Positions 12,901 to 48,817 of a stretch of DNA of 64,000 bases are shown here, piece after piece (position 1 is the first letter of the stretch; the number at the start of each line of letters is the position of its first letter). A program made the translations under genes and the position numbers. A model generated the notes under the pieces. It was not told the DNA's origin. It searched no databases and was given only the letters and a program-made list of their open reading frames with translations. The stretch lies in the IMG/VR virus record IMGVR_UViG_3300050821_008494; one strand, written 5' to 3'. This DNA is from a virus. Its lineage: Duplodnaviria > Heunggongvirae > Uroviricota > Caudoviricetes.

Positions 12901-13111
12901 CTTTTCATTCCTCCCTCCACTTCAAAGTGATGTCCCAGAGCAGCCGAGGCGAAGCAGGAAGCGGACCGTCTACAAGCCTACCAAAGTCAGGAACCGTATT
13001 GCCCTGAACATAGCAGGCAGCTTCGGCGACGTCGCAGAGGACCTCTTGGGCGACATGTCGTCCGGCCTCATGGACTTCGGCGCAGAAGGAATACTCGGAG
13101 GCCTCTTCTGA
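9944..13111 (+). CDS. large (1055 aa) virion-associated or structural protein
   Basis: three tandem ~57-aa repeats at N-terminus (about nt 10170-10540), Gly-rich hydrophobic core and C-terminal LGLG repeats; no signal peptide. Confidence 0.55.
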   Translation: MSLNALSPTSVGRNSPAFSPTSVFNAPTAVGYVPAPVNPNPSLKVDTSPSAHLNPAKVSAATSNAAALNQTLAANASQKFLTITMPDGSTVYAEYGRVVPQARFQNDMAAAGLSATLQQNKSSPFAQIQTPNGIVYAENGVVVSAEQFTRDLAASGIAQTLKQNASQSFVQIQTDSGIIYAEKGVQVSAAKFQQDLQNAQAPNPKTLNLFSKLSLNQQANSLSTLSELIANLKAELGSSPSSDRVNAYNQAVNTYNQETSIYNAGANKANAASQAQASAILSLSGQTLSALTLSQYLNNEGVNQPTITVNGKSMTLSQYAQQNPSQKFAVTATKSADGTVNFSLKSTTAPAASAPKSSPVESASATAYNDITAGFTDLFRAGVSTGIATRQAAAKVGIGKAPPKGTQPSDLSLLGFSEAETEQFAGSTAGYLFPGAAVLKGIGSPGEGTGARLFDIGVGVLPFLPLGDVAGVAAKAGGKAATVAKFGTSFAGRTLIGSGFGAVGGLAYGEDPLQIGESALLGGLFGGPGGSIASRVSGRLGESLSGATSSISQKLKVSDVGVAVAKAKVALSRPQNPGSNFMASIDQLFGREPGLAEEESIDYYAVGSRTSTTARGAPIRSGLTQDIVRESSDAIGGLAGLSSRRSFIENYLSEGIPSQYEESAQVQIESSRSVAKGGPPTSKLADEFRFVKGLEEGSGGPELMLRTKSDRALYEDQLNFGRLDDYFGVKSSEEGVGESTASKSQKVGDVASLQRGAQELNDIDSLFSQEQESAKVAKAARVAKATDDTSGQTEVASKSGQSSMQVAREEETSTLMSIDDMVAESRPATTGRSRPRIDYDYLSYTPSPPGYEGPSIGERSYDPTQSYLSGLRNEVRAPSDQGTSSFLNSYLGLGGRSSLGLGSGLGLGTIQPLGLRAPSVLGLGLSETSILGLGQATQMQQLLGVQSVQATVQATQQVQTTETTTRTILEEIGDYTLADELTTNEDFSFLPPLQSDVPEQPRRSRKRTVYKPTKVRNRIALNIAGSFGDVAEDLLGDMSSGLMDFGAEGILGGLF

Positions 13112-20918: not shown

Positions 20919-21133
20919 TGGCAGGAGGCCTACCCCGGACGAAATGTCAATGTTCTTGCGGCTGCACTAACAGTGCCCTCTCCGGAAAGCCTGACATCTT
21001 CTGGACGACGATTACAGGCGACAAGAACCCAATCTGTGCAGAATGTCAGTCAGGTTCTCACAAGGGTGCTCGTCGTCCTCGTGTCTCTCACAGGAGAGAG
21101 CCGTTCAATTGGAGTTTGAGCCAAAGTGGTTAG
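20918..21133 (+). CDS. zinc-finger protein (CQCSCGC...CAEC)
   Basis: ORF track. Confidence 0.4.
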   Translation: MAGGLPRTKCQCSCGCTNSALSGKPDIFWTTITGDKNPICAECQSGSHKGARRPRVSHRREPFNWSLSQSG

Positions 21134-21306
21134 TTCTCGCAATGTCTGTAAGGGCCACTGTGCAGCTTGTGGTCGTCGAGCTTGTGTTCATCCTGTAGGA
21201 CATTACGGAGACCATCAATGCCCTGAGCACGCATCGAGCTTCATCAACGATGCATTCAGCTTCGGTGACGGAGCACTAAATAACTGGCTTGGAGGAGTTC
21301 CGTAGC
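21126..21306 (+). CDS. small zinc-finger protein (CKGHCAACGRRAC...C)
   Basis: GTG start; hand-found, under 60 aa. Confidence 0.25.
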
Positions 21307-38196: not shown

Positions 38197-38627
38197 GAAC
38201 TCACAGAAGGAGAGAAGAGCAGTCAAAGGCAGAAGCGAAGATAGCAGCGGCAGCCGCAATAGCCTCAGTTCACTTTGGAGGAGACGTCTCGGCTGTCCCT
38301 TCAATAGTAGAGAAGGTCAAGGAGATGAAAGGAGACCTAATCATGTGGCGCATCGTCGCTACTTGTCAGGTCACAGGCTACCGCGAATACATGGTGAAGC
38401 TGTTCTGGGACGACGAGGCTTTGGGGCGTAGAGTGCTAGGGGACTACTACGCAAAACACGCTCATCCGGTCTCTCTGGAATTCACGAAAGTCCCTATGGA
38501 CACACCTATGGTCGAAGACCCTCCTCTGTGTGTAGACTGCAACAAAATTCACGAGGTCTCTTCGGGGAATGTCTGTCAGCCTTGTGTGCCTAGACTGCCG
38601 AGCCCAAGTCTTCGTCAACCTTCTTGA
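38193..38627 (+). CDS. hypothetical protein with C-terminal Cys cluster
   Basis: ATGA overlap. Confidence 0.45.
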   Translation: MRTHRRREEQSKAEAKIAAAAAIASVHFGGDVSAVPSIVEKVKEMKGDLIMWRIVATCQVTGYREYMVKLFWDDEALGRRVLGDYYAKHAHPVSLEFTKVPMDTPMVEDPPLCVDCNKIHEVSSGNVCQPCVPRLPSPSLRQPS

Positions 38628-38856
38628 GCTGAAGGACTGTCTCAAACAGCTTTGACTCTGCGATGTCCCACTCTACAACAGAGCCGTGAGCAATCTCCAT
38701 CTTTCGAGCGAAGGATTGAGGTATGACAGCGAACACTGTGTTGCTATTCTTGTTGACTCTCTGAACACGGACTTGGTTACCTCCGAGCTTCCCTCTGTTC
38801 TTCGGAATCGAAGGACTGCTCTTCGCCACGATGAACAGAGGCGTATTACCTAACAT
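38590..38856 (-). CDS. AbrB/SpoVT-like (swapped-hairpin) transcription regulator
   Basis: VQRVNKNSNTVFAVIPQSFARKMEIAHGSVVEWDI resembles the AbrB/MazE/SpoVT N-domain. Confidence 0.4.
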   Translation of the reverse strand: MLGNTPLFIVAKSSPSIPKNRGKLGGNQVRVQRVNKNSNTVFAVIPQSFARKMEIAHGSVVEWDIAESKLFETVLQLKKVDEDLGSAV

Positions 38857-38921
38857 TTGTATATAGTTATGTTACGAATCTGTGTTTTGTTATATGCCAG
38901 TTTCGTGTCGCCAGTCTTAAG
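38851..38921. promoter_or_regulatory. divergent promoter region with TATA-like boxes and inverted repeat TAACAT-N12-ATGTTA
   Basis: tatata 38860-65 and ttatat 38890-95; the IR arms flank the first TATA and overlap the AbrB start codon. Confidence 0.4.
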
Positions 38922-39260
38922 ATGTTGAGTCACCAAAGCCCGAAGCTCAAGAGGGCACTGGCTCGGTATCGCCACGCACTAGGACCCGTTGAGGGAGTCC
39001 TAACAATCGTCATCGTAGGAGCGCTGCTTGCAGTGTCTCCGTTCGTCATCGGTTCTCTCCAGAACGGATTGAACACGTCCGGTCTGCCTTCGGCAGCCCA
39101 GACTTCCATAGGGAACATCTTCACCCAAATCTACAACGCATTGGGCATCGTGCCCCTTGTGCTGGTCATCCTCGCGCTAGTCATCATCCTGAGCGCCATC
39201 TTCTTGCTAGTCCCAAGAAGGGGTGGCGGAATGGTTGGTGGCGCTGGCGAAGCCGTCTAG
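38922..39260 (+). CDS. 2-TM membrane protein, paralog A1 of a triplicated family
   Basis: LTIVIVGALLAVSPFVIGSLQNGLNTSGLPSAAQTSIGNIF...LVLVILALVIILSAIFLLVPRR. Confidence 0.5.
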   Translation: MLSHQSPKLKRALARYRHALGPVEGVLTIVIVGALLAVSPFVIGSLQNGLNTSGLPSAAQTSIGNIFTQIYNALGIVPLVLVILALVIILSAIFLLVPRRGGGMVGGAGEAV

Positions 39261-39341
39261 TCACCTCTGACCGCTGGAGCCCACGGAGGTAACACTCCGT
39301 GACTCCTTCCCTATCAAAAAACTAGAGAGAAAAAGAGAAAA

Positions 39342-39512
39342 ATGGCAAAGCGCCACGCGAAGCCGAATCCGACGCCGAACTTCAACGTAGTTCTGGCGGC
39401 AGCCGAGTCACTAGCACATGAGGCTCGTAAGGGTCAGCGTGGAGGTTACACCGACCCCGGTTACTTCGCCGAAAAGCTCGGAACGATTGAACGTGAGGTC
39501 TGGGATTCCTGA
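39342..39512 (+). CDS. small hypothetical protein
   Basis: hand-found 56-aa ORF. Confidence 0.3.
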   Translation: MAKRHAKPNPTPNFNVVLAAAESLAHEARKGQRGGYTDPGYFAEKLGTIEREVWDS

Positions 39513-39652
39513 TGGGAAAGAAAAGCCGACAGGATGTCAGGTCCATGGACTCTCACTATGAGTCGAGCGTCCACGACTTCGACATTTCTTCTGCTGACAA
39601 GATTGAAGGACTGACGAAGGGCAAAGGACTCGATACAGAGGGCGCAGTCTGA
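39512..39652 (+). CDS. small hypothetical protein
   Basis: TGATG-type overlaps on both sides. Confidence 0.3.
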   Translation: MGKKSRQDVRSMDSHYESSVHDFDISSADKIEGLTKGKGLDTEGAV

Positions 39653-39981
39653 TGCCTAGAGGCAGCAGGAATTCTCATCTCTACCAGCATGGAGGTAGAA
39701 GGGCTCACGAACCTGAGTTCGAGCGTAGATACGGAGCAGAGCATGGCAAAGAAGTCTATGGAGCAGTTGTAGGTCAAGTCCGAAGAGCCCGCATGGTGAA
39801 AGGCCTCTGTCGAGCAGGAAATTGCGGTCTTCGCTCAAGTCACAAGCATGGAGAGAACGATTGCTGCGGTGCACCTCTTCACTGTGCTCAGATTCTCGGC
39901 ACGGAGCAGCAAAGCAACAATCCGGCTTTCGGCCCTTCGACAATGCATGAAGTTCTTGATGGAGAAGGTCTCTTTGCGTGA
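39652..39981 (+). CDS. His/Cys-rich small protein, family member 1 (C-terminal FGPSTMHEVL)
   Basis: CRAGNCG...HKHGENDCCGAPLHCAQILGTEQ...PAFGPSTMHEVLDG. Confidence 0.45.
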   Translation: MPRGSRNSHLYQHGGRRAHEPEFERRYGAEHGKEVYGAVVGQVRRARMVKGLCRAGNCGLRSSHKHGENDCCGAPLHCAQILGTEQQSNNPAFGPSTMHEVLDGEGLFA

Positions 39982-40307
39982 CTCGGATGTCCTTTCCAGA
40001 CCCTACCGAGGACGCTTCGATAAGAAGCATAAGCCCGGTAGACGCGACGTTGACAATCGTGATAGTCGGAGCCCTGCTAGCAGTAGCTCCGTTTGTCATG
40101 GGGCTTCTTCAGAATGGAATCAAGACGGGAGGCCTACCTTCTACGGCTCAAACTTCCATATCGGGAGTCTTCACTCAAATCTTCAACACATTCAACATTC
40201 TTCCTCTCTACGTGGTAATCATTGCACTGGTCGGAATCCTTTCAACAATGATGCTCTTGTTCCCTCGAAGGAACAAGATAGAGTTTGGGGACGACACGGT
40301 AGTCTAG
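39978..40307 (+). CDS. 2-TM membrane protein, paralog A2
   Basis: GTGA overlap; LTIVIVGALLAVAPFVMGLLQNGIKTGGLPSTAQTSISGVF... Confidence 0.5.
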   Translation: MTRMSFPDPTEDASIRSISPVDATLTIVIVGALLAVAPFVMGLLQNGIKTGGLPSTAQTSISGVFTQIFNTFNILPLYVVIIALVGILSTMMLLFPRRNKIEFGDDTVV

Positions 40308-40319
40308 GAGTAGCTTGAC

Positions 40320-40547
40320 ATGGCCGCAGTCCTCGGAGCCGGAATCGGACTTGGTGCTACTCTCGGTGCTGCTGGAACAGTAACCTGTGCCGCAGGCGGA
40401 TGCGGAAGACCTACCAAGCATCACCACGGAGCTAACCCATGTTGCGGCTCCGAGCTTCATTGTGCCAAAATCCTCGGCGTGGAGCAAAGTAGCTCAAGAC
40501 CTGCATTCGGTCCTACTATGGACGAAGTCCTAACGGGAGTTCCTTGA
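40320..40547 (+). CDS. His/Cys-rich small protein, family member 2 (Gly/Ala-rich N-terminal hydrophobic segment)
   Basis: CAAGGCG...HHHGANPCCGSELHCAKILGVEQ...PAFGPTMDEVLTG. Confidence 0.45.
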   Translation: MAAVLGAGIGLGATLGAAGTVTCAAGGCGRPTKHHHGANPCCGSELHCAKILGVEQSSSRPAFGPTMDEVLTGVP

Positions 40548-40548
40548 C

Positions 40549-40782
40549 TTGGCAAAAGAAGGGGACATCTGTCCTAACTGTCACATAGGAGTCCTCGGTT
40601 GGGCAAAGAACTCTTACGAGGCTTCTATGTATGAGAAGCTGGCCTGTAACAATTGCGGGCACGTAGCAAATGAAAGACGGAAGACTTCCGGGCTTGCTGT
40701 AGATGTTACTCCGAGGATAAGCACAAGAATCACAGGTTCCGGAGTCCCTCAATATGACAACTACTTCGAGAGTGGAATCTGA
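40549..40782 (+). CDS. zinc-ribbon protein (CPNCH...CNNCGH)
   Basis: TTG start. Confidence 0.35.
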   Translation: MAKEGDICPNCHIGVLGWAKNSYEASMYEKLACNNCGHVANERRKTSGLAVDVTPRISTRITGSGVPQYDNYFESGI

Positions 40783-40967
40783 TGCCTAGAGACAAGAGAC
40801 GGGTTACGGAGAGCAACGTTGCGGAGAACCTGAAGGACATTCACACCCTTCACGGAATCCAGAACCCACACGACACCGTCGTCGGAGAAGTCACTCACAA
40901 CGTCGTAGACGGCTACATGGGTGACGTTCAGAAGCACGCAAAGGAAGCGAGAGAAAGAAAGCTGTAG
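40782..40967 (+). CDS. hypothetical His-rich protein
   Basis: TGATG overlap. Confidence 0.35.
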   Translation: MPRDKRRVTESNVAENLKDIHTLHGIQNPHDTVVGEVTHNVVDGYMGDVQKHAKEARERKL

Positions 40968-40973
40968 AGAGTC

Positions 40974-41462
40974 ATGGCAACCAGCTACAACGTCCAAAGT
41001 CTGGCGCTTCTAGCTGGTCCTCTGACTTTCGCATTCGCCTCCATAATGATAGGAGTCGATGATGGCATACCGGCCATTCACGACATGGCTCTGATAACCG
41101 GAGCCTTATTCTTCGTCTTCTCTCACTTCGCCCATTCCATTACCTCCTTCGGCATCGTAGGAGTTCCTCGCGTAGGGCTCGGTCCGATAGAAGGCACACT
41201 CACAATCGTCGTAGTCGGAACTCTGAGCGCGGTCTCTCCATTCGTCGTAGGGAGCCTTCAGAACGGTCTCAATACCAGCGGCCTTCCTTCTGCCGCGAAG
41301 GTCTCAATCGGTAACATCTTCCAGCAAATCTACAACGCTCTTGGAATAGTCCCTCTCGTCCTCGTAATCCTCGCCCTAGTCGTAATCTTGTCTGCGGTCT
41401 TCCTTCTTGTTCCTCGACGCTCCGGCATGATGCTCGACACAGGAGGTTCGCAAGCGGTATGA
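40974..41462 (+). CDS. membrane protein, paralog A3 (extra N-terminal TMs)
   Basis: LTIVVVGTLSAVSPFVVGSLQNGLNTSGLPSAAKVSIGNIF...LVLVILALVVILSAVFLLVPRR. Confidence 0.5.
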   Translation: MATSYNVQSLALLAGPLTFAFASIMIGVDDGIPAIHDMALITGALFFVFSHFAHSITSFGIVGVPRVGLGPIEGTLTIVVVGTLSAVSPFVVGSLQNGLNTSGLPSAAKVSIGNIFQQIYNALGIVPLVLVILALVVILSAVFLLVPRRSGMMLDTGGSQAV

Positions 41463-41485
41463 GAAAGTCCGAGAAGAGAACCAAG

Positions 41486-41635
41486 ATGGAACAGGAGTTT
41501 GTCACACTCTATCGCCTCAATTGGGGCAACACAATAGGTCTGGAGACCTCTCGCGTAACAGGAATGTCAGACCGCGAGCTTGAGATGTCACTCGACAGTC
41601 AACGGAAGTTTCCGGGGAAGTTCAGAGGACCATGA
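41486..41635 (+). CDS. small hypothetical protein
   Basis: hand-found; stop overlaps next ATG. Confidence 0.25.
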   Translation: MEQEFVTLYRLNWGNTIGLETSRVTGMSDRELEMSLDSQRKFPGKFRGP

Positions 41636-41880
41636 GCGCAGCAGGTGCGGCCTTCGGGGTCATTGGTGCGGGTCTTCCTCTCATAGCAGGATTCATAGTC
41701 CTCGATGCAATAGCAGGGACAGTCAAGTGCACTCATCCCGGCTGCGGTGAAGAGATGCATCATTCAAAGCAAGCCTCTCATTCGAAGGCTCATCAGTCGA
41801 AAGGAGAGCACACCACTCACAAGACGATACAGCGGCACGAATTCGGTGGAGACATGGACTCGTGGCTCGGCCTTGGTTAA
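41632..41880 (+). CDS. His/Cys-rich small protein, family member 3 (Gly/Ala-rich N-terminal segment)
   Basis: TVKCTHPGCGEEMHHSKQASHSKAH...FGGDMDSWLGLG. Confidence 0.4.
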   Translation: MSAAGAAFGVIGAGLPLIAGFIVLDAIAGTVKCTHPGCGEEMHHSKQASHSKAHQSKGEHTTHKTIQRHEFGGDMDSWLGLG

Positions 41881-42070
41881 TCCTAACAAGCGTCATTACT
41901 TCCAAGCGGACTCCTACGAGTCCAATTACTGTAAGTGCGGTAAGTGGTCTCTCGACCCAATCCACAACGACCCTATGAGAGTAGCAACAAGGGTTGCTGT
42001 CGGTATTGCAGACAAGCAGTCCGGAATAAAACACAAGGGGCTGGTGCCTCCTGTTCCGGAGTGGGATTGA
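41873..42070 (+). CDS. small Zn-ribbon protein (YCKCGKW...), tandem paralog 1
   Basis: TTG start; motif shared with next ORF. Confidence 0.3.
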   Translation: MVNPNKRHYFQADSYESNYCKCGKWSLDPIHNDPMRVATRVAVGIADKQSGIKHKGLVPPVPEWD

Positions 42071-42072
42071 GT

Positions 42073-42249
42073 ATGGCTTCCAACGTCCGTCGCCACTCAT
42101 TTACCGAGAGGGAGCCCGGCAGTGAATACTGTAAGCACTGCGAGAAGCACTACTCGAATCCAGTTCACATAATCCTCCGCTCTACTCCTGTCGGAAAGTT
42201 TACTCCTAACGACGAAGACAGGATTGTTGGGAAGGTCCCGAAGTGGTAG
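42073..42249 (+). CDS. small Zn-ribbon protein (YCKHCEKH...), tandem paralog 2
   Basis: ATG at 42073 in frame of ORF 41944..42249. Confidence 0.3.
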   Translation: MASNVRRHSFTEREPGSEYCKHCEKHYSNPVHIILRSTPVGKFTPNDEDRIVGKVPKW

Positions 42250-42251
42250 AA

Positions 42252-42479
42252 ATGGCTAGTGAAGACTACAGAGGCTCTCCATACTCTAGAGTCACCGGCT
42301 CCGGAATCTTCGGGAGGAGTCCTGCCCTCGATGAGAAGTGCACAGAATGCTACGGCCCCATGGAGATAACCGTCTTCGGCGAGAAGGTCTGCGCATCGAA
42401 CCCGTCTTGCGATTCTCCTCTCAACCCTCTCAACAAGAAGGCCAAGCACAAGACTAGAATTAGGGTAGCATTGATGTAG
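42252..42479 (+). CDS. zinc-ribbon protein (CTECYGP...C...C)
   Basis: ORF track. Confidence 0.35.
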   Translation: MASEDYRGSPYSRVTGSGIFGRSPALDEKCTECYGPMEITVFGEKVCASNPSCDSPLNPLNKKAKHKTRIRVALM

Positions 42480-42481
42480 CC

Positions 42482-42703
42482 ATGGCCAAGAGAGTCTTCG
42501 TGAAGAGGAGTCCCAACGCGAGCTTCGAGGATTTACAGAGCAGGCTCAAGCAGGACAACGTGCCTTTCCAATTCCTCAAGGACATCAACGCTGGAGTCGA
42601 ATACGTCGAGGCAGACATTGACCCTGCCTATGCAAACCTAGTGGGAGGTAGCACAGGCATGGCGGTAGGGAAAGTCAAGAGGACGGGGATGTGGGACTTC
42701 TAA
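42482..42703 (+). CDS. hypothetical protein
   Basis: ORF track. Confidence 0.35.
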   Translation: MAKRVFVKRSPNASFEDLQSRLKQDNVPFQFLKDINAGVEYVEADIDPAYANLVGGSTGMAVGKVKRTGMWDF

Positions 42704-42960
42704 TGGCAGGGAGACATAGCCGACGTCAAGGAAGGGGACCCGGAGGGAAACCTACAATGGAAGACTACCAATCAGACTCATTCTTCACCATAGGTGCCAT
42801 TCAGGGAACGATAGCGAAGACCAAAGAGAAGTCCGGACGCATGGGTCCTACCGCAGCACTAAGGGAGATAGAAGAGACCATAGGAACATTCGAGCATCAG
42901 CGCCACGTTCGTAGAGAGGCAGGTCTCGTTCCGGGAGCTTTCGAGGAGCCAGAAGAATAA
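42703..42960 (+). CDS. hypothetical basic protein
   Basis: TAATG overlap. Confidence 0.35.
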   Translation: MAGRHSRRQGRGPGGKPTMEDYQSDSFFTIGAIQGTIAKTKEKSGRMGPTAALREIEETIGTFEHQRHVRREAGLVPGAFEEPEE

Positions 42961-43106
42961 TGGTAAAAAAGTCCGAGCCCAAGCTTGTAGCATACGGAAC
43001 CATTAACGTCTACGAGATAGAGGGAAAGGCCTACTACAGATGGAGAGGAAAATACACGCGAGCACCCGAGAGGGACAATCTCATCCCTCAGGCACCGGAG
43101 TGGTAG
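42960..43106 (+). CDS. small hypothetical protein
   Basis: TAATG overlap; 48 aa. Confidence 0.25.
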   Translation: MVKKSEPKLVAYGTINVYEIEGKAYYRWRGKYTRAPERDNLIPQAPEW

Positions 43107-43109
43107 AGC

Positions 43110-43304
43110 ATGGCACGCAAGAGCAAAGACCATCTCGTTCACTTCAAGTGCTACCGCTGCGGAACCGACAACACAGAGATTACTACATACTACGACGGAG
43201 TCACGGAGAAGATTGGCGGTGACTTGGTCACTTGCAAAGGCTGTGGGGCTTATCTGTCATTCCCTTCCGACTACGGCCTCGTGAGAATGAAGCACTTTGG
43301 CTAG
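43110..43304 (+). CDS. zinc-ribbon protein (CYRCG...CKGCG)
   Basis: ORF track. Confidence 0.35.
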   Translation: MARKSKDHLVHFKCYRCGTDNTEITTYYDGVTEKIGGDLVTCKGCGAYLSFPSDYGLVRMKHFG

Positions 43305-43462
43305 ACGAAAGTGCACAGACTGTGGCAAGATGAAGGACTGCAAGACTTGCATCGAATACGGAGCACCATACTGCTCAGGCTGCGAGGCTCAGCATAGCCA
43401 CATAGTCCGGATGCAGCCGGTAATCCCGAGGAGATTCCTCGGAGGTTAAGAACTTGGCAGGA

Positions 43463-43609
43463 ATGCACATCTGCGGCTATTGTGGGAAGGACGACTTCAA
43501 GACTCGTGCGGAGCAGGAATCTCACGAGAGGAGAGTTCACGGTGCATCGGATTCTCCGATAGTCCAGAAGTATGAATGGCGTGGCAGCTACAAGGTGAGG
43601 CCAGCCTAA
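43463..43609 (+). CDS. small C2H2-type zinc-finger protein
   Basis: CGYCGKDDFKTRAEQESHERRVH = C-x2-C-x13-H-x4-H. Confidence 0.3.
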   Translation: MHICGYCGKDDFKTRAEQESHERRVHGASDSPIVQKYEWRGSYKVRPA

Positions 43610-43794
43610 TGGCAAACTGCGGAGTCTGCAAACTTTCTCTAAGTCCCGCTATGGGCCCTACAGTCCACGACAAGGAATATGGAAAGATTCACAGAGGCTG
43701 CTCTGTCTGGCTCAACGACCGCAGATGGGAACAGAAGCAGAGGGAGGCTAACGCAGGACCCGCAGAGCATTGGGTCAAGGAGGCCGGTCTCTGA
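43609..43794 (+). CDS. small Cys protein ending ...WVKEAGL
   Basis: TAATG overlap; embedded SD at 3' end. Confidence 0.3.
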   Translation: MANCGVCKLSLSPAMGPTVHDKEYGKIHRGCSVWLNDRRWEQKQREANAGPAEHWVKEAGL

Positions 43795-44015
43795 TGCCAA
43801 GAGCCTACACTGTGGAGGATTTGCTCAAGAAGCGCCGTGGTGCTAAAAGAGAATTGAACTCCGTAGTGAGAGAGTTCGGAGAGGTTGGCGGTTTCGCTCT
43901 TCATCATGGCAAGAAGGTCGCTCAGAAGAGCATAGAAGATATAGACATAAGGCTCGCGAGACTAGGCTACAATCCTGAAGGAACCCCGTTGTCGGAATTC
44001 AGTGACAATTCATGA
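43794..44015 (+). CDS. hypothetical protein
   Basis: TGATG overlap. Confidence 0.35.
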   Translation: MPRAYTVEDLLKKRRGAKRELNSVVREFGEVGGFALHHGKKVAQKSIEDIDIRLARLGYNPEGTPLSEFSDNS

Positions 44016-44122
44016 TGCTATCATACAAGAGCTTGGAGGAGACTCTTCGCAAGCATCACAAGGGAGCCGACCATACTTTCAAGCTCTTCCCTACCTACAC
44101 CTACGAGCTGGAGGGACTCTGA
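44012..44122 (+). CDS. small protein YKSLEETLRKHHKG..., tandem paralog 1
   Basis: hand-found in frame 2; similar to next ORF. Confidence 0.3.
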   Translation: MMLSYKSLEETLRKHHKGADHTFKLFPTYTYELEGL

Positions 44123-44247
44123 TGGGAAAGCCCTACAAGAGCTTACAGGAGAGCCTGCGGAAGCAGCACACGCTAGGCGAATACAAAGTCCTTGACTCCG
44201 GCTCCTTCATAGGAGACGACCTCTTCAGCGAAATGGAGGGAGTCTGA
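44122..44247 (+). CDS. small protein YKSLQESLRKQHTLG..., tandem paralog 2
   Basis: internal ATG of track ORF 44002..44247. Confidence 0.3.
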   Translation: MGKPYKSLQESLRKQHTLGEYKVLDSGSFIGDDLFSEMEGV

Positions 44248-44384
44248 TGGCGTGCATCTGCGGCGACTCTACATACATAGACTCTCACCACAAGATTCAT
44301 TGTATGGGATGCGCAAAGCTCAAGTCGAGATGCGACTGCCCTCGAAAAGAATCTGGGCACCTCCAAAGGATGGAGTTCGGTTAG
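44247..44384 (+). CDS. small Cys/His zinc-binding protein
   Basis: hand-found. Confidence 0.3.
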   Translation: MACICGDSTYIDSHHKIHCMGCAKLKSRCDCPRKESGHLQRMEFG

Positions 44385-44386
44385 CC

Positions 44387-44548
44387 ATGGCACGAAAGTG
44401 TCCCAAGTGCGGAGGCACAATGACCGATTTGGGTTGGAGCGCATTTCATAACGCTCATGTCTACCAATGTCGCAAGAAGAGTTGTCGCTCCGTAGAGCAC
44501 GTGTCCTACGTGAACAACGTAGAAACAACGGAGACGCCGAAGTGGTAA
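44387..44548 (+). CDS. zinc-ribbon protein (CPKCGG...C..C)
   Basis: ATG in frame of ORF 44252..44548. Confidence 0.35.
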   Translation: MARKCPKCGGTMTDLGWSAFHNAHVYQCRKKSCRSVEHVSYVNNVETTETPKW

Positions 44549-44550
44549 CC

Positions 44551-44682
44551 ATGGGAAGTCAAAAAAGAGAGCATGACCCAACTCTGAAGTTCCTCGTCGC
44601 CCTAGAGCAGGGCACAATATCCTCCCAGAAGTTCAACGAGCTGGCTAGAAACACGGACGTCTACATAGCTGAGTTGATTTGA
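44551..44682 (+). CDS. small hypothetical protein
   Basis: hand-found. Confidence 0.25.
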   Translation: MGSQKREHDPTLKFLVALEQGTISSQKFNELARNTDVYIAELI

Positions 44683-44889
44683 ATGGCTAAGTCACGCTCA
44701 CGCGACGACAGCGCGGCCTTCGTCGAACTCGAAGAGCTTGAGGGAGAGATTGAGGCTATGAAGTCAAGAGCCCTCTTCAGGACAGGCTCGCGGAGAGAAA
44801 TCTCCCGCAGAGACCGTCAGCGCTACGACTACGCAACTCAACGCGAGGCCGAAATCCTAGACGCTGCAGGAATCGAGTGGAGGACTTAG
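44683..44889 (+). CDS. hypothetical coiled-coil protein
   Basis: ORF track. Confidence 0.35.
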   Translation: MAKSRSRDDSAAFVELEELEGEIEAMKSRALFRTGSRREISRRDRQRYDYATQREAEILDAAGIEWRT

Positions 44890-45205
44890 AGCTTGCCAAA
44901 GAGGAACCCTCATCTGGTTGAGTTCGGCACGAGTCATTTCGTTCATCTTGACGAGGGACATATCGAGCAAGAAATCAAGAGGTCTCATGGAGTTGCCGGT
45001 GACCTTCCTCTAGACCCTGTGGCAAACTCGAAGCTCATACCGAGGCTCGATTGGTGACATGACAGAGAAGCTCCCCAATCACGAGTTCGAAGATATCACT
45101 ATGACCGACATTGTCGGAATATCAGAGGAGACTGAGAGCTTCATATCAGCGGGAGGAGAGCTTTGAGATGGCTACCTTAAACAAGACAAGGAGAGACGTC
45201 TAGGT

Positions 45206-45463
45206 ATGGGACAGAACATCGAGACTCTCGAAGGCTTCAGCCTCTTGGATTCTACAAGAGGTCTTGTAGTCTGCAAGCGGTGTAAGTCCGAAGTCCATCA
45301 TACGAAGCAACAGGAGCATACTAGGTTGCATCACCCCGCTAACTCTCGTGGAGTAGAACCCGGCCACACAATGGCAGAAATCCTCGGGGTTGCCGGAGTA
45401 TCTCACGAGACAGGGAAGGACTCCGACCCGTTCGACGTCAACATGGACGACCTGCTCAAGTGA
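45206..45463 (+). CDS. His/Cys-rich small protein, family member 4
   Basis: CKRCKSEVHHTKQQEHTRLHH...HTMAEILGV...DPFDVNMDDLLK. Confidence 0.4.
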   Translation: MGQNIETLEGFSLLDSTRGLVVCKRCKSEVHHTKQQEHTRLHHPANSRGVEPGHTMAEILGVAGVSHETGKDSDPFDVNMDDLLK

Positions 45464-45469
45464 TATTCC

Positions 45470-45709
45470 GTGCACAAAGAGTGGCTCGCTTTAATCGGAC
45501 GGAAGCTCGACGAATACAAATACAGCAACGACCCTAACGAGAGAGCCATTTACGAGCGCATTGAGCGGGTCTATCTTGCTCCAGCAGTCAACGAGATAAA
45601 CGCCAACGAACAATCCAAAGGCCGAATGGCTCCTTCTCGTGGAGGCAGAAGGGCTCCTGACCCATTCGACGGAATGCCCGGCGTCTCTATGGACGACGTG
45701 CTGGGTTGA
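45470..45709 (+). CDS. hypothetical protein with the family C-terminal motif (DPFDGMPGVSMDDVLG)
   Basis: GTG start. Confidence 0.35.
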   Translation: MHKEWLALIGRKLDEYKYSNDPNERAIYERIERVYLAPAVNEINANEQSKGRMAPSRGGRRAPDPFDGMPGVSMDDVLG

Positions 45710-45712
45710 ATC

Positions 45713-45750
45713 CTGTTGACTGTCAACAGTCCGATTTCCTTAAGAGTCGG
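45713..45750. promoter_or_regulatory. two palindromic operator-like elements
   Basis: CTGTTGAC-T-GTCAACAG (8-bp arms) and CCGA-tttCCTTAAGag-TCGG upstream of wHTH gene 45794. Confidence 0.4.
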
Positions 45751-45793
45751 AACAAACATTCCTGTTAGGCGTGGCGACGCAGGGAGCAGATGA

Positions 45794-46072
45794 GTGATTT
45801 TGGACGAGACACAACTCATCAACTACATGAAATCTAACAACTGTATGGCTAAGGTCGGTAAGCCAGACACAATGGAGGCTGCTGCGGCCTTAGAGCGGAG
45901 AGGCATGATTGAGAAGGTCGGGTCTCACAAGGGTCAACCAATCTACCATATGACCGACAAGGCAATAGAGGTCTACACCGGGAAGCGTCCTGCTCCAGTT
46001 GCTACTCTGAACGACTCAATAGCAGTCGGCTCAAGACTCAACCTGAAGACGGAGATGCCAATAAGGGCATGA
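45794..46072 (+). CDS. winged-helix DNA-binding protein, paralog of the 46972 N-terminus
   Basis: GTG start; wHTH-like. Confidence 0.4.
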   Translation: MILDETQLINYMKSNNCMAKVGKPDTMEAAAALERRGMIEKVGSHKGQPIYHMTDKAIEVYTGKRPAPVATLNDSIAVGSRLNLKTEMPIRA

Positions 46073-46905
46073 GCGAGTCTCCAAAGGTGAGAGTCGATTC
46101 ATCCGGCGATACAGGAACACGGACCACCTTTTCAAACATCTCAGAAGAGGAGCGTAGGAAGCTCAACGCGCCTCCAAGCAAGATAAAGACAGTTCCTATT
46201 AAAATCAAGAACATCGCCGTTGAGGCAGCAAAGGCAACTCCCGGAGCGTTGAAGTCAGGAGCGACATTAGGAGCCAAGGCCATAGCTACCGCAGCGGCAG
46301 AAGGCACCAAAGGTTATCGCGAAGACCGACAACGTGCCGACTCTGTTAGGAGAATCAACGCGGAGATAGCACAAGATGCCTACCTCAAAGGACTTCAGAC
46401 CGGAGTTGCCAAGAGAGCTTACGCTAGAGGTCAGCAAAGAGGTCTTGGTAGCAGAACCAACGGTCGTCAGAGCATAGAGCAACAGGCCTACGAGTATGGT
46501 CTCAAGAAAGGAATTGCGAAGCGAGCCGCACAGAAGGGCTACGAGCGAGGCCTTGGAGTTCAGCAAAGACCTTCTCCTTCTGGAGAGTTCGGACTTGGAG
46601 GAGGTCTCTCTGGTTACACTCTTGGCGGTGACTTAGGCATTATCGGCATGGGACCTAGCTCTACCGTCCGACAGGTTCCGGGCAAAGGAGGGAAGCCACA
46701 GCTCGTCCGTGTAGCCGAAGAGCCAGCTAGAATCGGAGGAGGGGAGGCAGAAGTCCTCTCTTGGATGAACCAACCTGCGCCTCCTGCCAGCAAGGTCGTC
46801 ATAAAGAAGGGAAAGCCTGTCACAATCAAGGCAGCTCCTCGAAGAGGCGACTCTATGGAAGACATTCTCGGATTCGGAGCCCTCGACTCAATGCGAATAG
46901 AGTGA
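46069..46905 (+). CDS. repeat protein (278 aa) with Y.KGL..G.AKRAY.RG...RGLG repeats
   Basis: ATGA overlap; three internal repeats. Confidence 0.5.
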   Translation: MSESPKVRVDSSGDTGTRTTFSNISEEERRKLNAPPSKIKTVPIKIKNIAVEAAKATPGALKSGATLGAKAIATAAAEGTKGYREDRQRADSVRRINAEIAQDAYLKGLQTGVAKRAYARGQQRGLGSRTNGRQSIEQQAYEYGLKKGIAKRAAQKGYERGLGVQQRPSPSGEFGLGGGLSGYTLGGDLGIIGMGPSSTVRQVPGKGGKPQLVRVAEEPARIGGGEAEVLSWMNQPAPPASKVVIKKGKPVTIKAAPRRGDSMEDILGFGALDSMRIE

Positions 46906-46949
46906 GCTTTGTTTGGTTTCATCATCTCAACAGAGTCATCTAAATGCGT

Positions 46950-46964
46950 CCCTTAACTTAAGGG
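46950..46964. promoter_or_regulatory. perfect palindrome CCCTTAA-C-TTAAGGG (operator-like)
   Basis: 8 nt upstream of ATG 46972. Confidence 0.45.
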
Positions 46965-46971
46965 CTGTGTA

Positions 46972-47481
46972 ATGAACGGTCCCGAGTTCGTGAAGTATCT
47001 CTCAACTCACAAAGGAGAGGCTATGATAGGAAACGACGAGACTCTCGCTGTAGCACGCTACATGGAGAGCAAAGGCCTCCTAACCAAAATAGGAACCAAG
47101 GACAATCATCCAATATTCCGAGTCACTTCAGATGGAAGGGCTTTCGTTACTCAGGCTCTGAAGGCTGCAGGTCAAACCAAGGGAGAGAAGGCGAAGGACT
47201 TTCTCAAGTCAGCAGTTGGAGCCTTCCAAGATTACGCCGAGGCATATCGCAACATGCATCCTGTAGGCATGGAAGACGTCCGAAGGACGTTCGGTGGAGG
47301 AGGCCTCGGAGGAAGAGCCTCAGACGAGCCAATACTTCTTCCTCCCATAGAGCCAATGAGGCTCGACGTCGGACAATCTGCTCTCCCGAAGAAAGGCAAG
47401 CAGGTCGAGGAGGTCATCAAGATTGACGGCCAATACTACAAGAAGGTCGGCAAGAACCGCTACGAGAAGGTTAGTTCTTGA
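46972..47481 (+). CDS. winged-helix domain protein
   Basis: perfect palindrome CCCTTAACTTAAGGG 8 nt upstream of ATG. Confidence 0.45.
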   Translation: MNGPEFVKYLSTHKGEAMIGNDETLAVARYMESKGLLTKIGTKDNHPIFRVTSDGRAFVTQALKAAGQTKGEKAKDFLKSAVGAFQDYAEAYRNMHPVGMEDVRRTFGGGGLGGRASDEPILLPPIEPMRLDVGQSALPKKGKQVEEVIKIDGQYYKKVGKNRYEKVSS

Positions 47482-47899: not shown

Positions 47900-48817
47900 T
47901 TGGCCGCTCCGTCACCGGAGCCCTTGAGCGGACTCCGCAAGTATCTCTCCGGTCGTCGAGCTAACGGCATCATCTCAGCCATAGCAGCAGGCGCACTCAT
48001 TCAAGCGATGCTCATCTTCGCAGTCGAACTCTTCCAAGTCAACGTCCCTCTCATCCAATTCTTCATAGGCCAAACTTCCGGCTCCGGAGGTCAGAGCCTC
48101 CAATACCAACCTCTCGGTTCCTCCCCATCAGGGCAAGCAGTCTCCGGATTCCTCTACATCATACCTGCCATAGCAGCCACCTTCGGCATGGTCTACCTAG
48201 CACGGCGCAATCCTCGTGTCTGGTTCAAGCTCGTGATAGGAATTGCCTTCGCGCTCGGCTCCTTCTTCATCGGCTTCGTCTCCTATTGGTGGTGGCTCGG
48301 CTTCTGGCCAACGGCAATCCTCATAGTCGGTCTGGCCACGGCAGTCTTGGTATCCTTTACGTTCAAGTCACGCACAAGAGCAGCTCTCGCAGGAGCACCT
48401 TTCAAAATCTGGTTCGCCGTAGGTTTTGCCTTTCTCTCTTTCCTCACACTCCCATTCTTCATGTGCCTAGCCATAATCTGCGGCTTTGCAGTCTGGGACA
48501 TAATCGCCGTCTTCCGAGGACCTCTCAAAGAAGTCGTCAAGTCAGAAGGCAAGGCCTTCCAATTCCTCCGCACTGCCCTGATGCTTGACTTCGGTCTCGG
48601 TGGCATCGGCCTCGGAGACCTCTACCTCTACAGCCTCATGACAATGCTCGCAGCGTCCCTCGGCTTCCATCAAGTCGAGGCCTCATACATTGCAATCCTC
48701 GCCGGAGTCATGCTCAGCTACTACCTCCTCCGCACACGCGAGAAGATTGGCCTGCCGGGGCTTCCTTTGCCGGTCCTCTTCTTCATAGTCTCCGTAGGAG
48801 CACTCACACTTGCCTAG
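47900..48817 (+). CDS. presenilin/signal-peptide-peptidase family (GxGD-type) intramembrane aspartyl protease homolog
   Basis: VWDIIAVFRGPLKEV vs PS1 VYDLVAVLCPKGPLRMLVE; GIGLGDLYLYS vs LGLGDFIFYS; LPGLPLPV vs LPALPISI (PAL motif). Confidence 0.55.
   Translation: MAAPSPEPLSGLRKYLSGRRANGIISAIAAGALIQAMLIFAVELFQVNVPLIQFFIGQTSGSGGQSLQYQPLGSSPSGQAVSGFLYIIPAIAATFGMVYLARRNPRVWFKLVIGIAFALGSFFIGFVSYWWWLGFWPTAILIVGLATAVLVSFTFKSRTRAALAGAPFKIWFAVGFAFLSFLTLPFFMCLAIICGFAVWDIIAVFRGPLKEVVKSEGKAFQFLRTALMLDFGLGGIGLGDLYLYSLMTMLAASLGFHQVEASYIAILAGVMLSYYLLRTREKIGLPGLPLPVLFFIVSVGALTLA

What the first reader, a model, noticed from the sequence alone, without database searches (positions are those of the whole stretch)
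39652..45709. Multi-copy His/Cys-rich small-protein family sharing a C-terminal F(G/D)P..M(D/H)(E/D)(V/L)L tail
At least four paralogs (39652, 40320, 41632, 45206) share a core C.(A/T/K)..C(G)...HH.K... followed by a CCG..LHCA(Q/K)ILG.EQ or HTMAEILGV block. Each ends within a few residues of the stop with PAFGPSTMHEVL, PAFGPTMDEVL, FGGDMDSWLGLG or DPFDVNMDDLL. ORF 45470 has the tail only (DPFDGMPGVSMDDVLG). Two members, 40320 and 41632, have a Gly/Ala-rich GxxxG-type hydrophobic N-terminus. A conserved extreme C-terminal tag on a diversified metal-binding family suggests a shared docking partner, a sorting or encapsidation signal, or a modification site. No annotated family is recognisable.
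Basis: seen in the sequence. Interest (0 to 1): 0.7.

Follow-up and report, generated by a model that had tools for sequence, protein, structure and literature searches.

The report
Zinc-finger mini-proteins sharing a C-terminal tag
A virus-like element of peat-soil archaea encodes several tiny zinc-finger proteins that end in the same short acidic-hydrophobic tail, and unrelated neighbouring proteins carry that tail too, so it looks like a portable docking tag whose binding partner is still unknown.

Summary
Four small + strand ORFs (39652, 40320, 41632, 45206) are real genes. They form two clear paralog pairs, joined by a weaker link. Each carries a C2H2-type zinc finger, and two have an N-terminal Gly/Ala-rich membrane anchor. 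All four end in G-x-x-M-(D/H)-(D/E/S)-hydrophobic-L. So do ORF 45470, the 278-aa protein 46069 and, more loosely, the Cys/His-rich ORF 21126.

Shuffled proteins average 0.015.

The tail is not a property of the zinc-finger family. Orthologs of 39652/40320 in related metagenomic elements lack it. An unrelated 93-aa protein in the closest syntenic relative ends ...TMDEILGFGS*. The 21126 and 46069 families keep tail-like ends across divergent elements, with synonymous codon changes.

The best reading is a mobile short linear docking motif on flexible linkers, in a new family of integrative virus-like elements of Nitrososphaerales. I infer a viral assembly partner, but this is untested. PIP box, encapsulin cargo peptide, EEVD and ribosomal-stalk mimicry all fail their tests.

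Seen in passing: homologs of the neighbouring 2-TM gene carry 21-nt inserts that fold like bulge-helix-bulge mini-introns.

The parts
39652..39981 (+). 109-aa protein made of an N-terminal ~50-aa domain, a zinc finger (C53-C78, nt 39808-39885), a linker and the tail PAFGPSTMHEVL (nt 39922-39957). The trailing DGEGLFA* overlaps the SD-like sequence and GTG start of the next gene.
   Evidence: ORF. Paralog of 40320, E 1e-19. 16 synonymous-different codons among 51 aligned. Full-length orthologs without the tail in L077 and L078/L079, E 1e-28. The N-domain occurs alone as a 57-aa protein in L005/L006/L007/L076/L080. AF2: hairpin plus helix at residues 50-85, pLDDT 69-76.
40320..40547 (+). 75-aa protein with a Gly/Ala-rich N-terminal hydrophobic anchor (nt 40320-40385), a zinc finger C-x4-C-x12-CC-x4-HC (nt 40386-40463) and the tail PAFGPTMDEVL (nt 40500-40532).
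   Evidence: Not called by the public annotation, which called the antisense ORF 40242-40487 instead. L075 10665-10907 carries the same finger core but ends ...HCGSAMRKEYGG*.
41632..41880 (+). 82-aa protein with an N-terminal TM segment (about nt 41647-41703), a C2H2-type finger C33-x4-C38-x11-H50-x3-H54 (nt 41728-41793) and the tail EFGGDMDSWLGLG* (nt 41839-41877).
   Evidence: E 1e-6 to 45206. AF2: strands 30-33 and 41-43, helix 44-57, pLDDT about 80. Orthologs: P0003 (63% id...GFDIDGMFGSGGIDLPEGW*) and L075 13609-13851 (...FDFGGVDEALGSSPVW*).
45206..45463 (+). 85-aa soluble protein with a finger C23-x2-C26-x11-H38-x3-H42(H43) (nt 45272-45334), an internal TMAEILGV block and the tail DPFDVNMDDLL (nt 45425-45457).
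   Evidence: Pfam zf_UBZ E 0.002, below the curated cut-off. Recovered by the leave-one-out tail HMM, E 4e-4.
45470..45709 (+). 79-aa protein with no finger and no detectable homolog. It shares only the tail DPFDGMPGVSMDDVLG* (nt 45659-45706).
   Evidence: The tail DNA is close to that of the adjacent 45206 (GACCC[G/A]TTCGAC and ATGGACGAC), which suggests a local duplication of the tail module.
46069..46905 (+). 278-aa basic, Gly-rich, repeat-containing protein from a core gene family of these elements. It ends ...PRRGDSMEDILGFGALDSMRIE* (nt 46840-46902). It also has internal tail-like blocks, GGDLGII and IGGGEAEVLSWM.
   Evidence: Orthologs end ...RATNDIDALLG* (L077)...RATNAIDALLE* (L078) and ...GGGESE(V/L)L..MGPRK.KEGLWL* (L006/L076), with synonymous codon differences.
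21126..21305 (+). 59-aa Cys/His-rich protein with a looser version of the tail, FSFGDGALNNWLGGVP* (nt 21255-21302). It lies just downstream of the large membrane-protein genes, next after the 907-aa ORF 17889-20612 and two small ORFs.
   Evidence: Orthologs are L076 about 908-1078 (...YSFGDNSLKNWLGGQ*) and L077 4487-4660 (...PAMSKWLGAE*), E 4e-22 and 4e-16. L/W/L/G are conserved with different codons. Scored E 8e-4 by a second-round tail HMM that included it.
9944..13111 (+). Possible weak carrier. A 1055-aa low-complexity protein with LGLG repeats, ending ...GSFGDVAEDLLGDMSSGLMDFGAEGILGGLF* (nt 13016-13108).
   Evidence: Seen by eye. Not detected by either tail HMM at E<=5, so membership is doubtful.
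38922..41462 (+). Context: three cassettes, each starting with a 2-TM paralog (38922-39260, 39978-40307, 40974-41462; 53-72% identical) and followed by a finger+tail gene. In the first and third cassettes one or two small ORFs intervene.
   Evidence: About 25 relatives of the 2-TM protein exist in public assemblies. Some sit next to a tyrosine integrase in Nitrososphaerales chromosomes.
45794..47481 (+). Context: winged-helix-like paralogs 45794-46072 and 46972-47481 flank 46069. Protein 46972 has an internal PVGMEDVRRTFGGGG block.
   Evidence: The pairing of a 46069-like gene with a wH-like gene is conserved in L006, L076, L077 and L078.
47900..48817 (+). Context: a presenilin/SPP-like polytopic protein with ..AVWD.., ..GLGD.. 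and ..PGLP.. motifs.
   Evidence: Pfam PF01080, E 1.5e-6, 27.7 bits, below the 34.3 cut-off. A homolog is present in L076. There is no evidence linking it to the tail.

Best explanation
Window 39.6-46.9 kb lies in the morphogenesis-like core of an uncharacterised integrative virus-like element of peat Nitrososphaerales (Thaumarchaeota).

In this lineage a small C2H2-type zinc-finger module has been duplicated into four genes. One is fused to a conserved N-terminal domain, two are fused to an N-terminal Gly/Ala-rich membrane anchor, and one is soluble. Each copy carries a short linear motif at the end of a polar linker that AF2 models with low confidence. The core of the motif is G-x-x-[M/L]-[D/E/N/H]-[D/E/N/S]-[V/I/L/W/A]-L, often followed by G.

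The same motif ends several unrelated proteins:
- 45470 in the window.
- The conserved basic protein family 46069.
- The conserved Cys-rich family 21126.
- A 93-aa protein in the syntenic relative L075.

I read it as a portable docking tag. It would bring nucleic-acid-binding fingers, the basic 46069 protein and perhaps a large structural protein to one common partner. My guess is that the partner is virus-encoded and acts at the membrane assembly site, for example the 2-TM protein lattice, the adjacent winged-helix proteins or the conserved polytopic membrane proteins. The anchored fingers would then tether the genome or nucleoprotein to the membrane.

**Shown**
- The genes are real.
- The finger-type spacing is present and the fold is predicted.
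- The tail is enriched at C-termini.
- It occurs on unrelated proteins.
- It is conserved with synonymous codon change in two core families.
- It is absent from the orthologs of 39652/40320.

**Inferred**
- That the tail binds anything.
- The identity and viral origin of the partner.
- Zinc and DNA binding.
- The topology of the anchors.
For: **Genes and family**
- Paralogy and coding signal.
- Finger: the ligand spacing is read directly from the sequence.
- AF2 gives a beta-hairpin plus helix, pLDDT about 70-83.
- The best PDB profile hits are ZNF224, Sp1 and KLF10 fingers, aligned on the C..C..H..H stretch, E 0.3-1.5.
- The non-significant Foldseek hit list includes TRAF6, ATF-2, RAG1 and SWI5 fingers among other unrelated folds.
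- Pfam zf_UBZ, E 0.002.

**Tail**
- 6 of 7 + strand matches lie at ORF ends and there are none on the - strand.
- Shuffle test: 6 observed against a mean of 0.015.
- A window-only tail HMM finds one significant hit in relatives, at the C-terminus of an unrelated protein.
- Tails are kept across divergent elements in the 21126 and 46069 families, with different codons.
- The 41632 orthologs keep an FGG-acidic-hydrophobic-LG end.
- AF2 gives a short helix on MHEVL. Confidence in the linker before it is low (pLDDT about 50-57) and falls below 50 after it.

**Mobility**
- Orthologs of 39652/40320 lack the tail.
- The 45470 tail looks like a copy of the tail of 45206.

**Context**
- Window 16.5-22 kb plus 34.8-50.5 kb match, in the same order, genes spread over most of the 17.5 kb read from the 25.8-kb contig L077, which ends with an integrase.
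- Integrated copies sit next to a tyrosine integrase.
- A remnant lies in a chromosome whose P0 gene is 99% identical to that of a SPRUCE peat Nitrososphaerales MAG.
Against: - No partner was identified and no binding was tested.
- The motif is five to eight residues long and degenerate. Leave-one-out recovery fails for 39652, 41632 and 46069.
- The second-round HMM finds nothing beyond the sequences it was built from.
- Several carriers were picked by eye.
- Within each paralog pair the shared tail may simply be inherited.
- Residues after the core overlap SD-like sequences of downstream genes.
- Virion association is only by analogy. No capsid, portal or packaging gene was recognised and IMG/VR holds no relative.
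- Pfam scores for the finger are below the curated thresholds.
Confidence: 0.45

Rival explanations
1. The tail is a host-hijacking motif. It would mimic a C-terminal peptide that host proteins use to bind a hub, such as the PCNA sliding clamp (PIP-like), the translational GTPases that bind the ribosomal stalk tail, or the Cdv/ESCRT machinery. The viral fingers and other proteins would thereby be recruited to that hub.
For: - The form is right for such motifs: C-terminal, an acidic and hydrophobic core, a predicted short helix and a flexible linker.
- M-D-S-W-L and L-N-N-W-L match the [LIM]-x-x-[W]-[L] half of archaeal PIP boxes. This comparison rests on my own knowledge.
- The host stalk protein P1 ends KKEEEALQGLASLFG*, which has the same general flavour.
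- Multiple unrelated viral proteins sharing one motif is typical of hub binding.
Against: - No copy has the PIP Gln at position 1. Only 2 of about 8 have an aromatic at position 7, and none has one at position 8 (read from the sequences).
- An HMM of 55 host P1 tails retrieves no viral tail; the best hits are unrelated, with E>1.
- MIM2 is proline-rich and MIM1 is Leu/Arg-rich (PMC5840170). Neither resembles the tail.
- Membrane-anchored carriers and a possible large structural carrier fit a replication or translation hub poorly.
Confidence: 0.2
2. There is no dedicated function. The similarity would reflect common descent within the two paralog pairs, a recent local copy (45206 to 45470), a general preference for acidic disordered ends, and nucleotide-level constraints from overlapping ribosome-binding sites and start codons of tightly packed genes.
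For: - The paralog pairs share tails by descent.
- The 45206 and 45470 tails are near-identical at the DNA level.
- 26 of 45 called genes have an SD-like tetramer inside the end of the preceding gene.
- …DGEGLFA*, …TGVP* and …GGVP* overlap GGAG-type sequences.
- The run of ..PEW* ends nearby is largely explained this way.
- Leave-one-out HMM support is weak for half the members.
Against: - The M-D-[DE]-hydrophobic-L core uses varied codons (Leu as CTA, CTT, CTC and CTG; Asp/Glu varied). It sits 1-11 codons from the stop, so it is not a fixed nucleotide signal.
- It recurs on proteins with no other similarity, including one in another element.
- It is kept with synonymous changes in the 21126 and 46069 families across elements whose proteins are only about 30-60% identical.
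- Enrichment at ORF ends is far above shuffles, and the motif is absent on the other strand.
Confidence: 0.2
3. The tail is a processing or turnover signal. It could be a C-terminal degron for a host or viral protease/unfoldase, or a maturation cleavage site. That would give these small regulators a short life or remove the tail during assembly.
For: - C-terminal, exposed and conserved only as a short core.
- A presenilin-like protease gene lies 1 kb downstream.
- Archaeal proteasome substrates with C-terminal determinants are known (PMC12909875, listed; not read in detail).
Against: - Presenilin-type proteases cut inside membrane helices, not soluble tails (established knowledge).
- L075 carries the tail on two proteins, but no presenilin homolog was seen in the 20 kb read.
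- No protease recognition rule matches, and nothing was tested.
Confidence: 0.1

Closest known systems
Small C2H2-type zinc-finger proteins of archaeal viruses and plasmids (Pfam clan zf-C2H2, including UBZ-like fingers)
   Same: A single finger in a protein of 50-110 aa. C-x2/4-C ... H-x3/4-H ligand spacing. Predicted beta-hairpin plus helix. Occurs in arrays of tiny genes in an archaeal mobile element.
   Different: - The spacer is 11 residues rather than 12 in 41632 and 45206.
- The third ligand is Cys in 39652 and 40320, with extra Cys/His.
- No Pfam model reaches its cut-off.
- Two copies are membrane-anchored at the N-terminus.
- All four carry a shared C-terminal motif.
C-terminal clamp-binding peptides (archaeal/eukaryotic PIP box Q-x-x-[LIM]-x-x-[FYW]-[FYWL]; bacterial QL[SD]LF)
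   Same: A short C-terminal peptide on many unrelated proteins, with an aliphatic residue followed three to four positions later by hydrophobic residues. Predicted short helix. Acidic residues lie between the hydrophobic positions.
   Different: No Gln at position 1. Mostly V/I/L rather than aromatic residues. Some carriers are membrane-anchored. No clamp gene is nearby.
Cargo-loading and scaffold C-terminal tails (encapsulin cargo-loading peptides; phage and herpesvirus scaffold C-termini)
   Same: A portable C-terminal tag after a flexible linker that targets diverse proteins to the inside of one shell. Gly/Leu/Ile/Asp-rich (the GGDLGI block in 46069 resembles such peptides, from memory).
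   Different: No HK97-fold or encapsulin shell gene was detected. The element appears membrane-based (2-TM protein, many TM proteins). The motif core is different.
Ribosomal stalk protein P1/P0 C-terminal tail (host: ...KKEEEALQGLASLFG*)
   Same: An acidic run followed by hydrophobic-L-x-G-L at the extreme C-terminus after a flexible linker. It binds several partners.
   Different: A profile of the host tails does not detect the viral tails. The LFG end is absent, except perhaps in protein 9944.

Membership tests
C2H2 zinc finger | Ligand spacing C-x2-4-C-x12-H-x3-5-H | tested here: inconclusive
   Read from the sequences:
- 41632: C-x4-C-x11-H-x3-H.
- 45206: C-x2-C-x11-H-x3-H.
- L075 ortholog: C-x2-C-x12-H-x4-H.
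- P0003: C-x4-C-x11-H-x4-H.
- 39652 and 40320: C-x4-C-x12-C(C)-x4/5-H(C), with Cys as the third ligand.
The spacing is close to the rule but not exact.
C2H2 zinc finger | Beta-beta-alpha fold with the two His on the helix | tested here: met
   AF2 model of 41632: strands 30-33 and 41-43, helix 44-57 carrying H50 and H54, pLDDT about 80. 39652: hairpin plus helix 75-85, pLDDT 69-76. This is prediction only, from shallow alignments.
C2H2 zinc finger | Significant match to a curated profile or a solved finger | tested here: not met
   - Pfam zf_UBZ: 18.1 bits against a cut-off of 25.6, for 45206 only.
- PDB profile hits to ZNF224, Sp1 and KLF10: E 0.26-1.5.
- Foldseek: best E 1.6.
C2H2 zinc finger | Binds one Zn2+ per finger | not testable with these tools
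   Needs metal analysis of purified protein.
PIP box (PCNA-interacting peptide) | Gln at position 1 | tested here: not met
   The position three residues before the M/L is G (4 copies), D (2) or P (1) in the seven window tails.
PIP box (PCNA-interacting peptide) | Aliphatic residue at position 4 and two aromatic or large hydrophobic residues at positions 7-8 | tested here: inconclusive
   Position 4 is M or L in all copies. Positions 7-8 are WL in 41632 and 21126 but VL, LL or IL in the others.
Encapsulin-type cargo-loading peptide | A shell (HK97-fold encapsulin) gene in the same locus | tested here: not met
   No such Pfam or PHROG hit among 75 window proteins scanned.
Ribosomal stalk tail mimic | Sequence similarity to the host P1/P0 C-terminal peptide | tested here: not met
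   An HMM of host P1 tails (from 55 genes) against 4181 segments gave no viral tail among its hits.
Hsp70/Hsp90 EEVD-TPR system | EEVD at the free C-terminus, with a TPR partner | tested here: not met
   The motif ends in L, lies 1-11 residues from the end, and no TPR protein was detected.
Archaeosortase/sortase-type C-terminal sorting signals (PGF-CTERM, LPXTG) | Motif followed by a TM helix and a basic cluster | tested here: not met
   The proteins end 1-11 residues after the motif, with no hydrophobic segment.
Substrates of presenilin/SPP-type GxGD proteases | Single-pass membrane protein with a very short extracytoplasmic stub | tested here: inconclusive
   40320, 41632, P0003, L075 13609 and L006 1065 have one N-terminal Gly/Ala-rich hydrophobic segment. 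A presenilin-like gene lies at 47900. Topology and cleavage were not tested.

The most novel reading that the evidence does not exclude
The tail is the address tag of a previously unseen family of membrane-containing viruses of soil and peat Thaumarchaeota. One short C-terminal peptide would load zinc-finger DNA binders, a basic nucleoprotein-like protein and a large structural protein onto a common viral assembly hub at the host membrane. The Gly/Ala-rich anchored fingers would be held at the membrane and released by the element's own presenilin-like protease. That would be regulated intramembrane proteolysis run by a virus.
Probability: 0.15. Interest if true: 0.75.

Novelty: new variant of a known kind. 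Interest (0 to 1): 0.48.

Why it matters
Short linear motifs organise virus-host and virus-virus protein networks in eukaryotic viruses, but they are almost undescribed in archaeal viruses, where most genes are orphans. Here a motif is defined by sequence, shared by at least four unrelated protein families and conserved across related elements. That gives a concrete handle: a peptide to use as bait on the protein network of an uncultivated thaumarchaeal element family that IMG/VR and the profile libraries do not recognise. It also shows that two real genes were missed by automatic annotation, and that the tail moves between proteins by local duplication. The practical value depends on finding the partner. 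Without it, this is a well-supported curiosity.

Tried and rejected
- **Profile libraries.** Pfam and PHROGs on all members and neighbours gave nothing above threshold.
- **Homolog searches with the family alignment.** The word-indexed search found only the window's own proteins. The full HMMER search of 1.8 billion representatives added one relative, P0003, on a 502-bp contig.
- **IMG/VR scans.** Scans with the 2-TM, 49193 and 37021 alignments found no relatives.
- **GTDB scan with the 2-TM alignment.** None found.
- **tblastn of the 2-TM protein against phage records.** Nothing.
- **PDB profile search with the 2-TM alignment.** Only a spurious SecY hit.
- **Foldseek of both AF2 models.** No significant match.
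- **Stalk-tail mimicry.** Rejected by a profile test.
- **EEVD/TPR, sortase-type signals, encapsulin cargo peptide and canonical PIP box.** Each fails a defining feature.
- **Literature search for the pentapeptides.** Only noise. A sample accession search returned nothing.
- **Scan for further BHB-like hairpin inserts.** A strict structural scan of the window found only one, probably chance, hit on the - strand at 48103.
- **Fetching NSV1 by a remembered accession.** Failed.

Full report
**1. What is at the coordinates**

Between 38.9 and 47.5 kb the window is a dense, one-directional run of small + strand ORFs.

In-window phmmer against all 1284 six-frame segments gives these relations:
- 39652~40320, E 1e-19.
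- 41632~45206, E 1e-6.
- 40320~41632, E 1e-3 to 1e-2. This is the only link between the two pairs.
- 45470, 46069 and 21126 show no global similarity to anything else.

A public annotation of the same contig called 41632, 45206, 45470 and 46069. It missed 39652 and 40320, and called the antisense ORF 40242-40487 instead of 40320. Both missed ORFs are real:
- Each fills a gap exactly, with overlapping stop and start codons.
- Their 51 aligned codons split into 17 identical, 16 synonymous-different and 18 non-synonymous.
- Both have orthologs elsewhere.

**2. The core is a C2H2-type zinc finger**

The ligand spacing can be read directly from the sequences:
- 41632: C33-x4-C38-x11-H50-x3-H54.
- 45206: C23-x2-C26-x11-H38-x3-H42.
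- L075 ortholog of 41632: the classical C-x2-C-x12-H-x4-H.
- 39652 and 40320: C-x4-C-x12-C(C)-x4/5-H(C), so Cys replaces the first His.

Supporting evidence is consistent but weak:
- AF2 on shallow alignments predicts a beta-hairpin plus helix over exactly this stretch. pLDDT is about 80 for 41632 and 69-76 for 39652.
- A profile of the family has classical fingers as its best PDB hits (ZNF224, Sp1, KLF10), E 0.3-1.5.
- Foldseek's hits, all non-significant, include the TRAF6, ATF-2, RAG1 and SWI5 fingers alongside unrelated folds.
- Pfam gives zf_UBZ at E 0.002, below its cut-off.

So the fold and ligand pattern fit, but formal profile membership is not reached.

40320 and 41632 have a Gly/Ala-rich hydrophobic N-terminus with GxxxG spacings. 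Their Kyte-Doolittle 19-residue maxima are 1.56 and 2.26. The relatives P0003, L075 13609 and L006 1065 have one too. Anchor+finger proteins are therefore a recurrent feature of these elements.

**3. The tail**

Enrichment at ORF ends:
- Six matches lie within 11 residues of an ORF end, all within 7.3 kb.
- The sixth carrier is the 278-aa protein 46069 (...PRRGDSMEDILGFGALDSMRIE*).
- Residue shuffles of 126 ORFs give a mean of 0.015 such ORFs against 6 observed. The pattern was chosen post hoc.

Looser copies:
- The Cys/His-rich ORF 21126 ends ...FSFGDGALNNWLGGVP*.
- The 1055-aa protein 9944 may carry one too.

Codon use shows that conservation is at the protein level. Leu is encoded by CTA, CTT, CTC and CTG, and the acidic codons vary.

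Two caveats apply:
- Leave-one-out HMMs recover only 40320 and 45206 significantly.
- Residues after the core (…DGEGLFA*, …TGVP*, …GGVP*) overlap GGAG-type ribosome-binding sequences of the next gene.

**4. Relatives, and what they say about the tail**

The family itself is nearly orphan. The full HMMER search of 1.8 billion representatives added one protein, P0003, on a 502-bp contig.

The neighbouring 2-TM protein was more useful. A JGI scan and a protein search gave about 25 relatives, and their contigs were read.

The context they reveal:
- L075 (60.5 kb) is collinear with window 34.8-57 kb.
- L076, L006/L007, L077, L078 and L080 share the same core.
- Over most of the 17.5 kb read from it, L077 (a 25.8-kb contig) carries, in the same order, homologs of genes from window 16.5-22 kb and 34.8-50.5 kb. 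It ends with an integrase.
- L069-L074 have the 2-TM gene next to a tyrosine integrase beside cellular genes.
- L008 has a disrupted copy in a chromosome whose P0 gene is 99% identical to that of a SPRUCE peat Nitrososphaerales MAG.
- IMG/VR holds no relative.

The window therefore belongs to an expanded member (contig 185 kb) of an unrecognised family of integrative virus-like elements of peat Thaumarchaeota.

Within these relatives the tail behaves as follows:
- (a) A tail HMM built only from the window finds one significant hit in 220 kb of six-frame protein. It is the C-terminus of L075 11646-11927, an unrelated 93-aa protein ending ...TMDEILGFGS* (E 0.004).
- (b) The 41632 orthologs end ...FDFGGVDEALGSSPVW* and ...GFDIDGMFGSGGIDLPEGW*.
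- (c) 21126 orthologs end ...SLKNWLGGQ* and ...AMSKWLGAE*. 46069 orthologs end ...IDALLG*...IDALLE* or ...GGGESEVLAFMG...*. The conserved residues use different codons.
- (d) Orthologs of 39652/40320 keep the finger but not the tail...HCGSAMRKEYGG*...HHCDMIRGMHMTGMMMG* and ...DIGDNFLEATRY*.
- (e) 39652 is a fusion. Its first 50 residues form a free-standing 57-aa protein in L005/L006/L007, L076 and L080.
- (f) The tail of 45470 is nearly identical in DNA to that of the adjacent 45206.

The tail is thus a mobile motif. It is old on two core families and was recently acquired by the finger genes of this lineage.

**5. Mechanism**

The anatomy is that of a short linear docking motif:
- It sits after a polar linker that AF2 models with low confidence.
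- Its hydrophobic positions fall at i, i+3 and i+4, with acidic residues between them.
- A short helix is predicted.
- It occurs on unrelated proteins.

The carriers are fingers (two of them membrane-anchored), a conserved basic Gly-rich protein beside winged-helix proteins, and a Cys-rich protein beside the large membrane proteins. Given that set, I favour a virus-encoded partner at a membrane assembly site.

This is inference. No capsid or packaging gene was recognised and no binding could be tested.

Known C-terminal systems were checked against their defining features:
- PIP box: no Gln at position 1 and few aromatic residues.
- Encapsulin cargo peptide: no shell gene.
- EEVD/TPR: wrong end residue and position.
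- Sortase-type signals: no TM segment after the motif.
- Ribosomal stalk tail: the host P1 ends KKEEEALQGLASLFG*, but its profile retrieves no viral tail.
- MIM1 and MIM2 consensus motifs, from PMC5840170, do not resemble it.

**6. Verdict**

The proteins are new, divergent members of a known kind (small viral C2H2-type fingers). They carry an undescribed shared C-terminal motif.

Interest is moderate. The motif is well defined and gives a testable bait, but the partner and function are unknown.

Noticed in passing
L006 ~750-772 (same in L005 ~931-951 and L007 ~5657-5677); L008 10108-10128, also 10034-10063 and 10211-10240: Homologs of the window's 2-TM gene carry in-frame inserts of 21 nt (L008 also has two of 30 nt) that contain stop codons.
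- Removing each insert restores the reading frame exactly.
- Two independent 21-nt inserts, at different codons, fold with their flanks into the same shape: an outer helix, a 4-bp helix, an AAA bulge, a 5-bp stem with a 4-nt loop, then a 3-5-nt bulge. MFE z-scores are -4.6 to -4.9, and 0 of 200 shuffles fold as well.
- This is the architecture expected of bulge-helix-bulge mini-introns cut by the archaeal tRNA-splicing endonuclease, here inside a protein-coding gene of a virus-like element.
- The window's own three paralogs have no insert.
   Followed up: partly
window 41714-45057 (ORFs ending at 42070, 42249, 43106, 44548, 45057); L075 10372-13851: Many neighbouring mini-ORFs end in ..P(E/K)xW*. 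In the window: VPPVPEWD*, GKVPKW*, QAPEW*, ETPKW*, IPRLDW*. In L075, 5 of the 13 genes downstream of the 2-TM gene (10372-14714) end in W. The GAGTGG/GGTGA codons coincide with Shine-Dalgarno-like sequences 5-10 nt upstream of the next start, so much of this looks like a translational-coupling by-product. The upstream Pro is not explained by that.
   Followed up: partly
window 38922-39260, 39978-40307, 40974-41462: Three paralogs (53-72% identical) of a roughly 100-aa protein with two TM helices.
- They share a conserved ..GPVEG.LTIV.. junction before helix 1 and a ..PRR-Gly-rich end.
- This is the most widespread protein of the element family, with about 25 relatives; one variant occurs in 35 assembly blocks.
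- It is a candidate major membrane or capsid protein.
- It has no detectable similarity to known archaeal virus capsid proteins by BLAST, PHROGs or PDB profile.
   Followed up: partly
window 47900-48817; L076 ~3056-3872 (- strand): A presenilin/SPP-like polytopic protein with WD, GLGD and PGL motifs is encoded by the element (Pfam E 1.5e-6, below the cut-off). It has a 37%-identical homolog in a related element. It sits near single-pass Gly/Ala-rich anchored finger proteins, which would be plausible substrates.
   Followed up: no
window 16536-22155 and 34790-50547 versus L077: The conserved genes of these two window blocks recur, in the same order, along most of the 17.5 kb read from the 25.8-kb contig L077, which ends with an integrase. 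The window's element (contig 185 kb) appears to be a greatly expanded relative, with about 12 kb of extra orphan genes inserted between the blocks and a glycan-synthesis cluster after them.
   Followed up: partly
window 50828-63371; L075 15218-20321: A sugar-modification cluster follows the small-gene array and is collinear in L075 at least through the PIG-L deacetylase, where the L075 locus ends. It comprises a methyltransferase, GT2 glycosyltransferase, FMN reductase, PylC-like ATP-grasp, PIG-L deacetylase, NAD epimerase/dehydratase, DegT aminotransferase and aldo-keto reductase.
   Followed up: no
window 39652-39981 and 40320-40547: Two genuine genes were not called in the public annotation of this contig. 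For 40320 an antisense ORF (40242-40487) was called instead.
   Followed up: yes
window 9944-13111 and 46069-46905: Both proteins contain Gly-Leu low-complexity runs (LGLGSGLGLG..., GEFGLGGGLSGYTLGGDLGIIGMG). The 46069 family also keeps two internal blocks, Y(T/S)L(G/M)GDLGI(I/L) and IGGGE(A/S)EVL(S/A)(W/F)M, that resemble the C-terminal tail.
   Followed up: partly
window 38590-38856 (- strand): One of the few - strand genes is an AbrB/MazE-like small protein that diverges from the first 2-TM gene. The same arrangement is seen in L005, L008 and L077, so it is probably the local transcription regulator.
   Followed up: no
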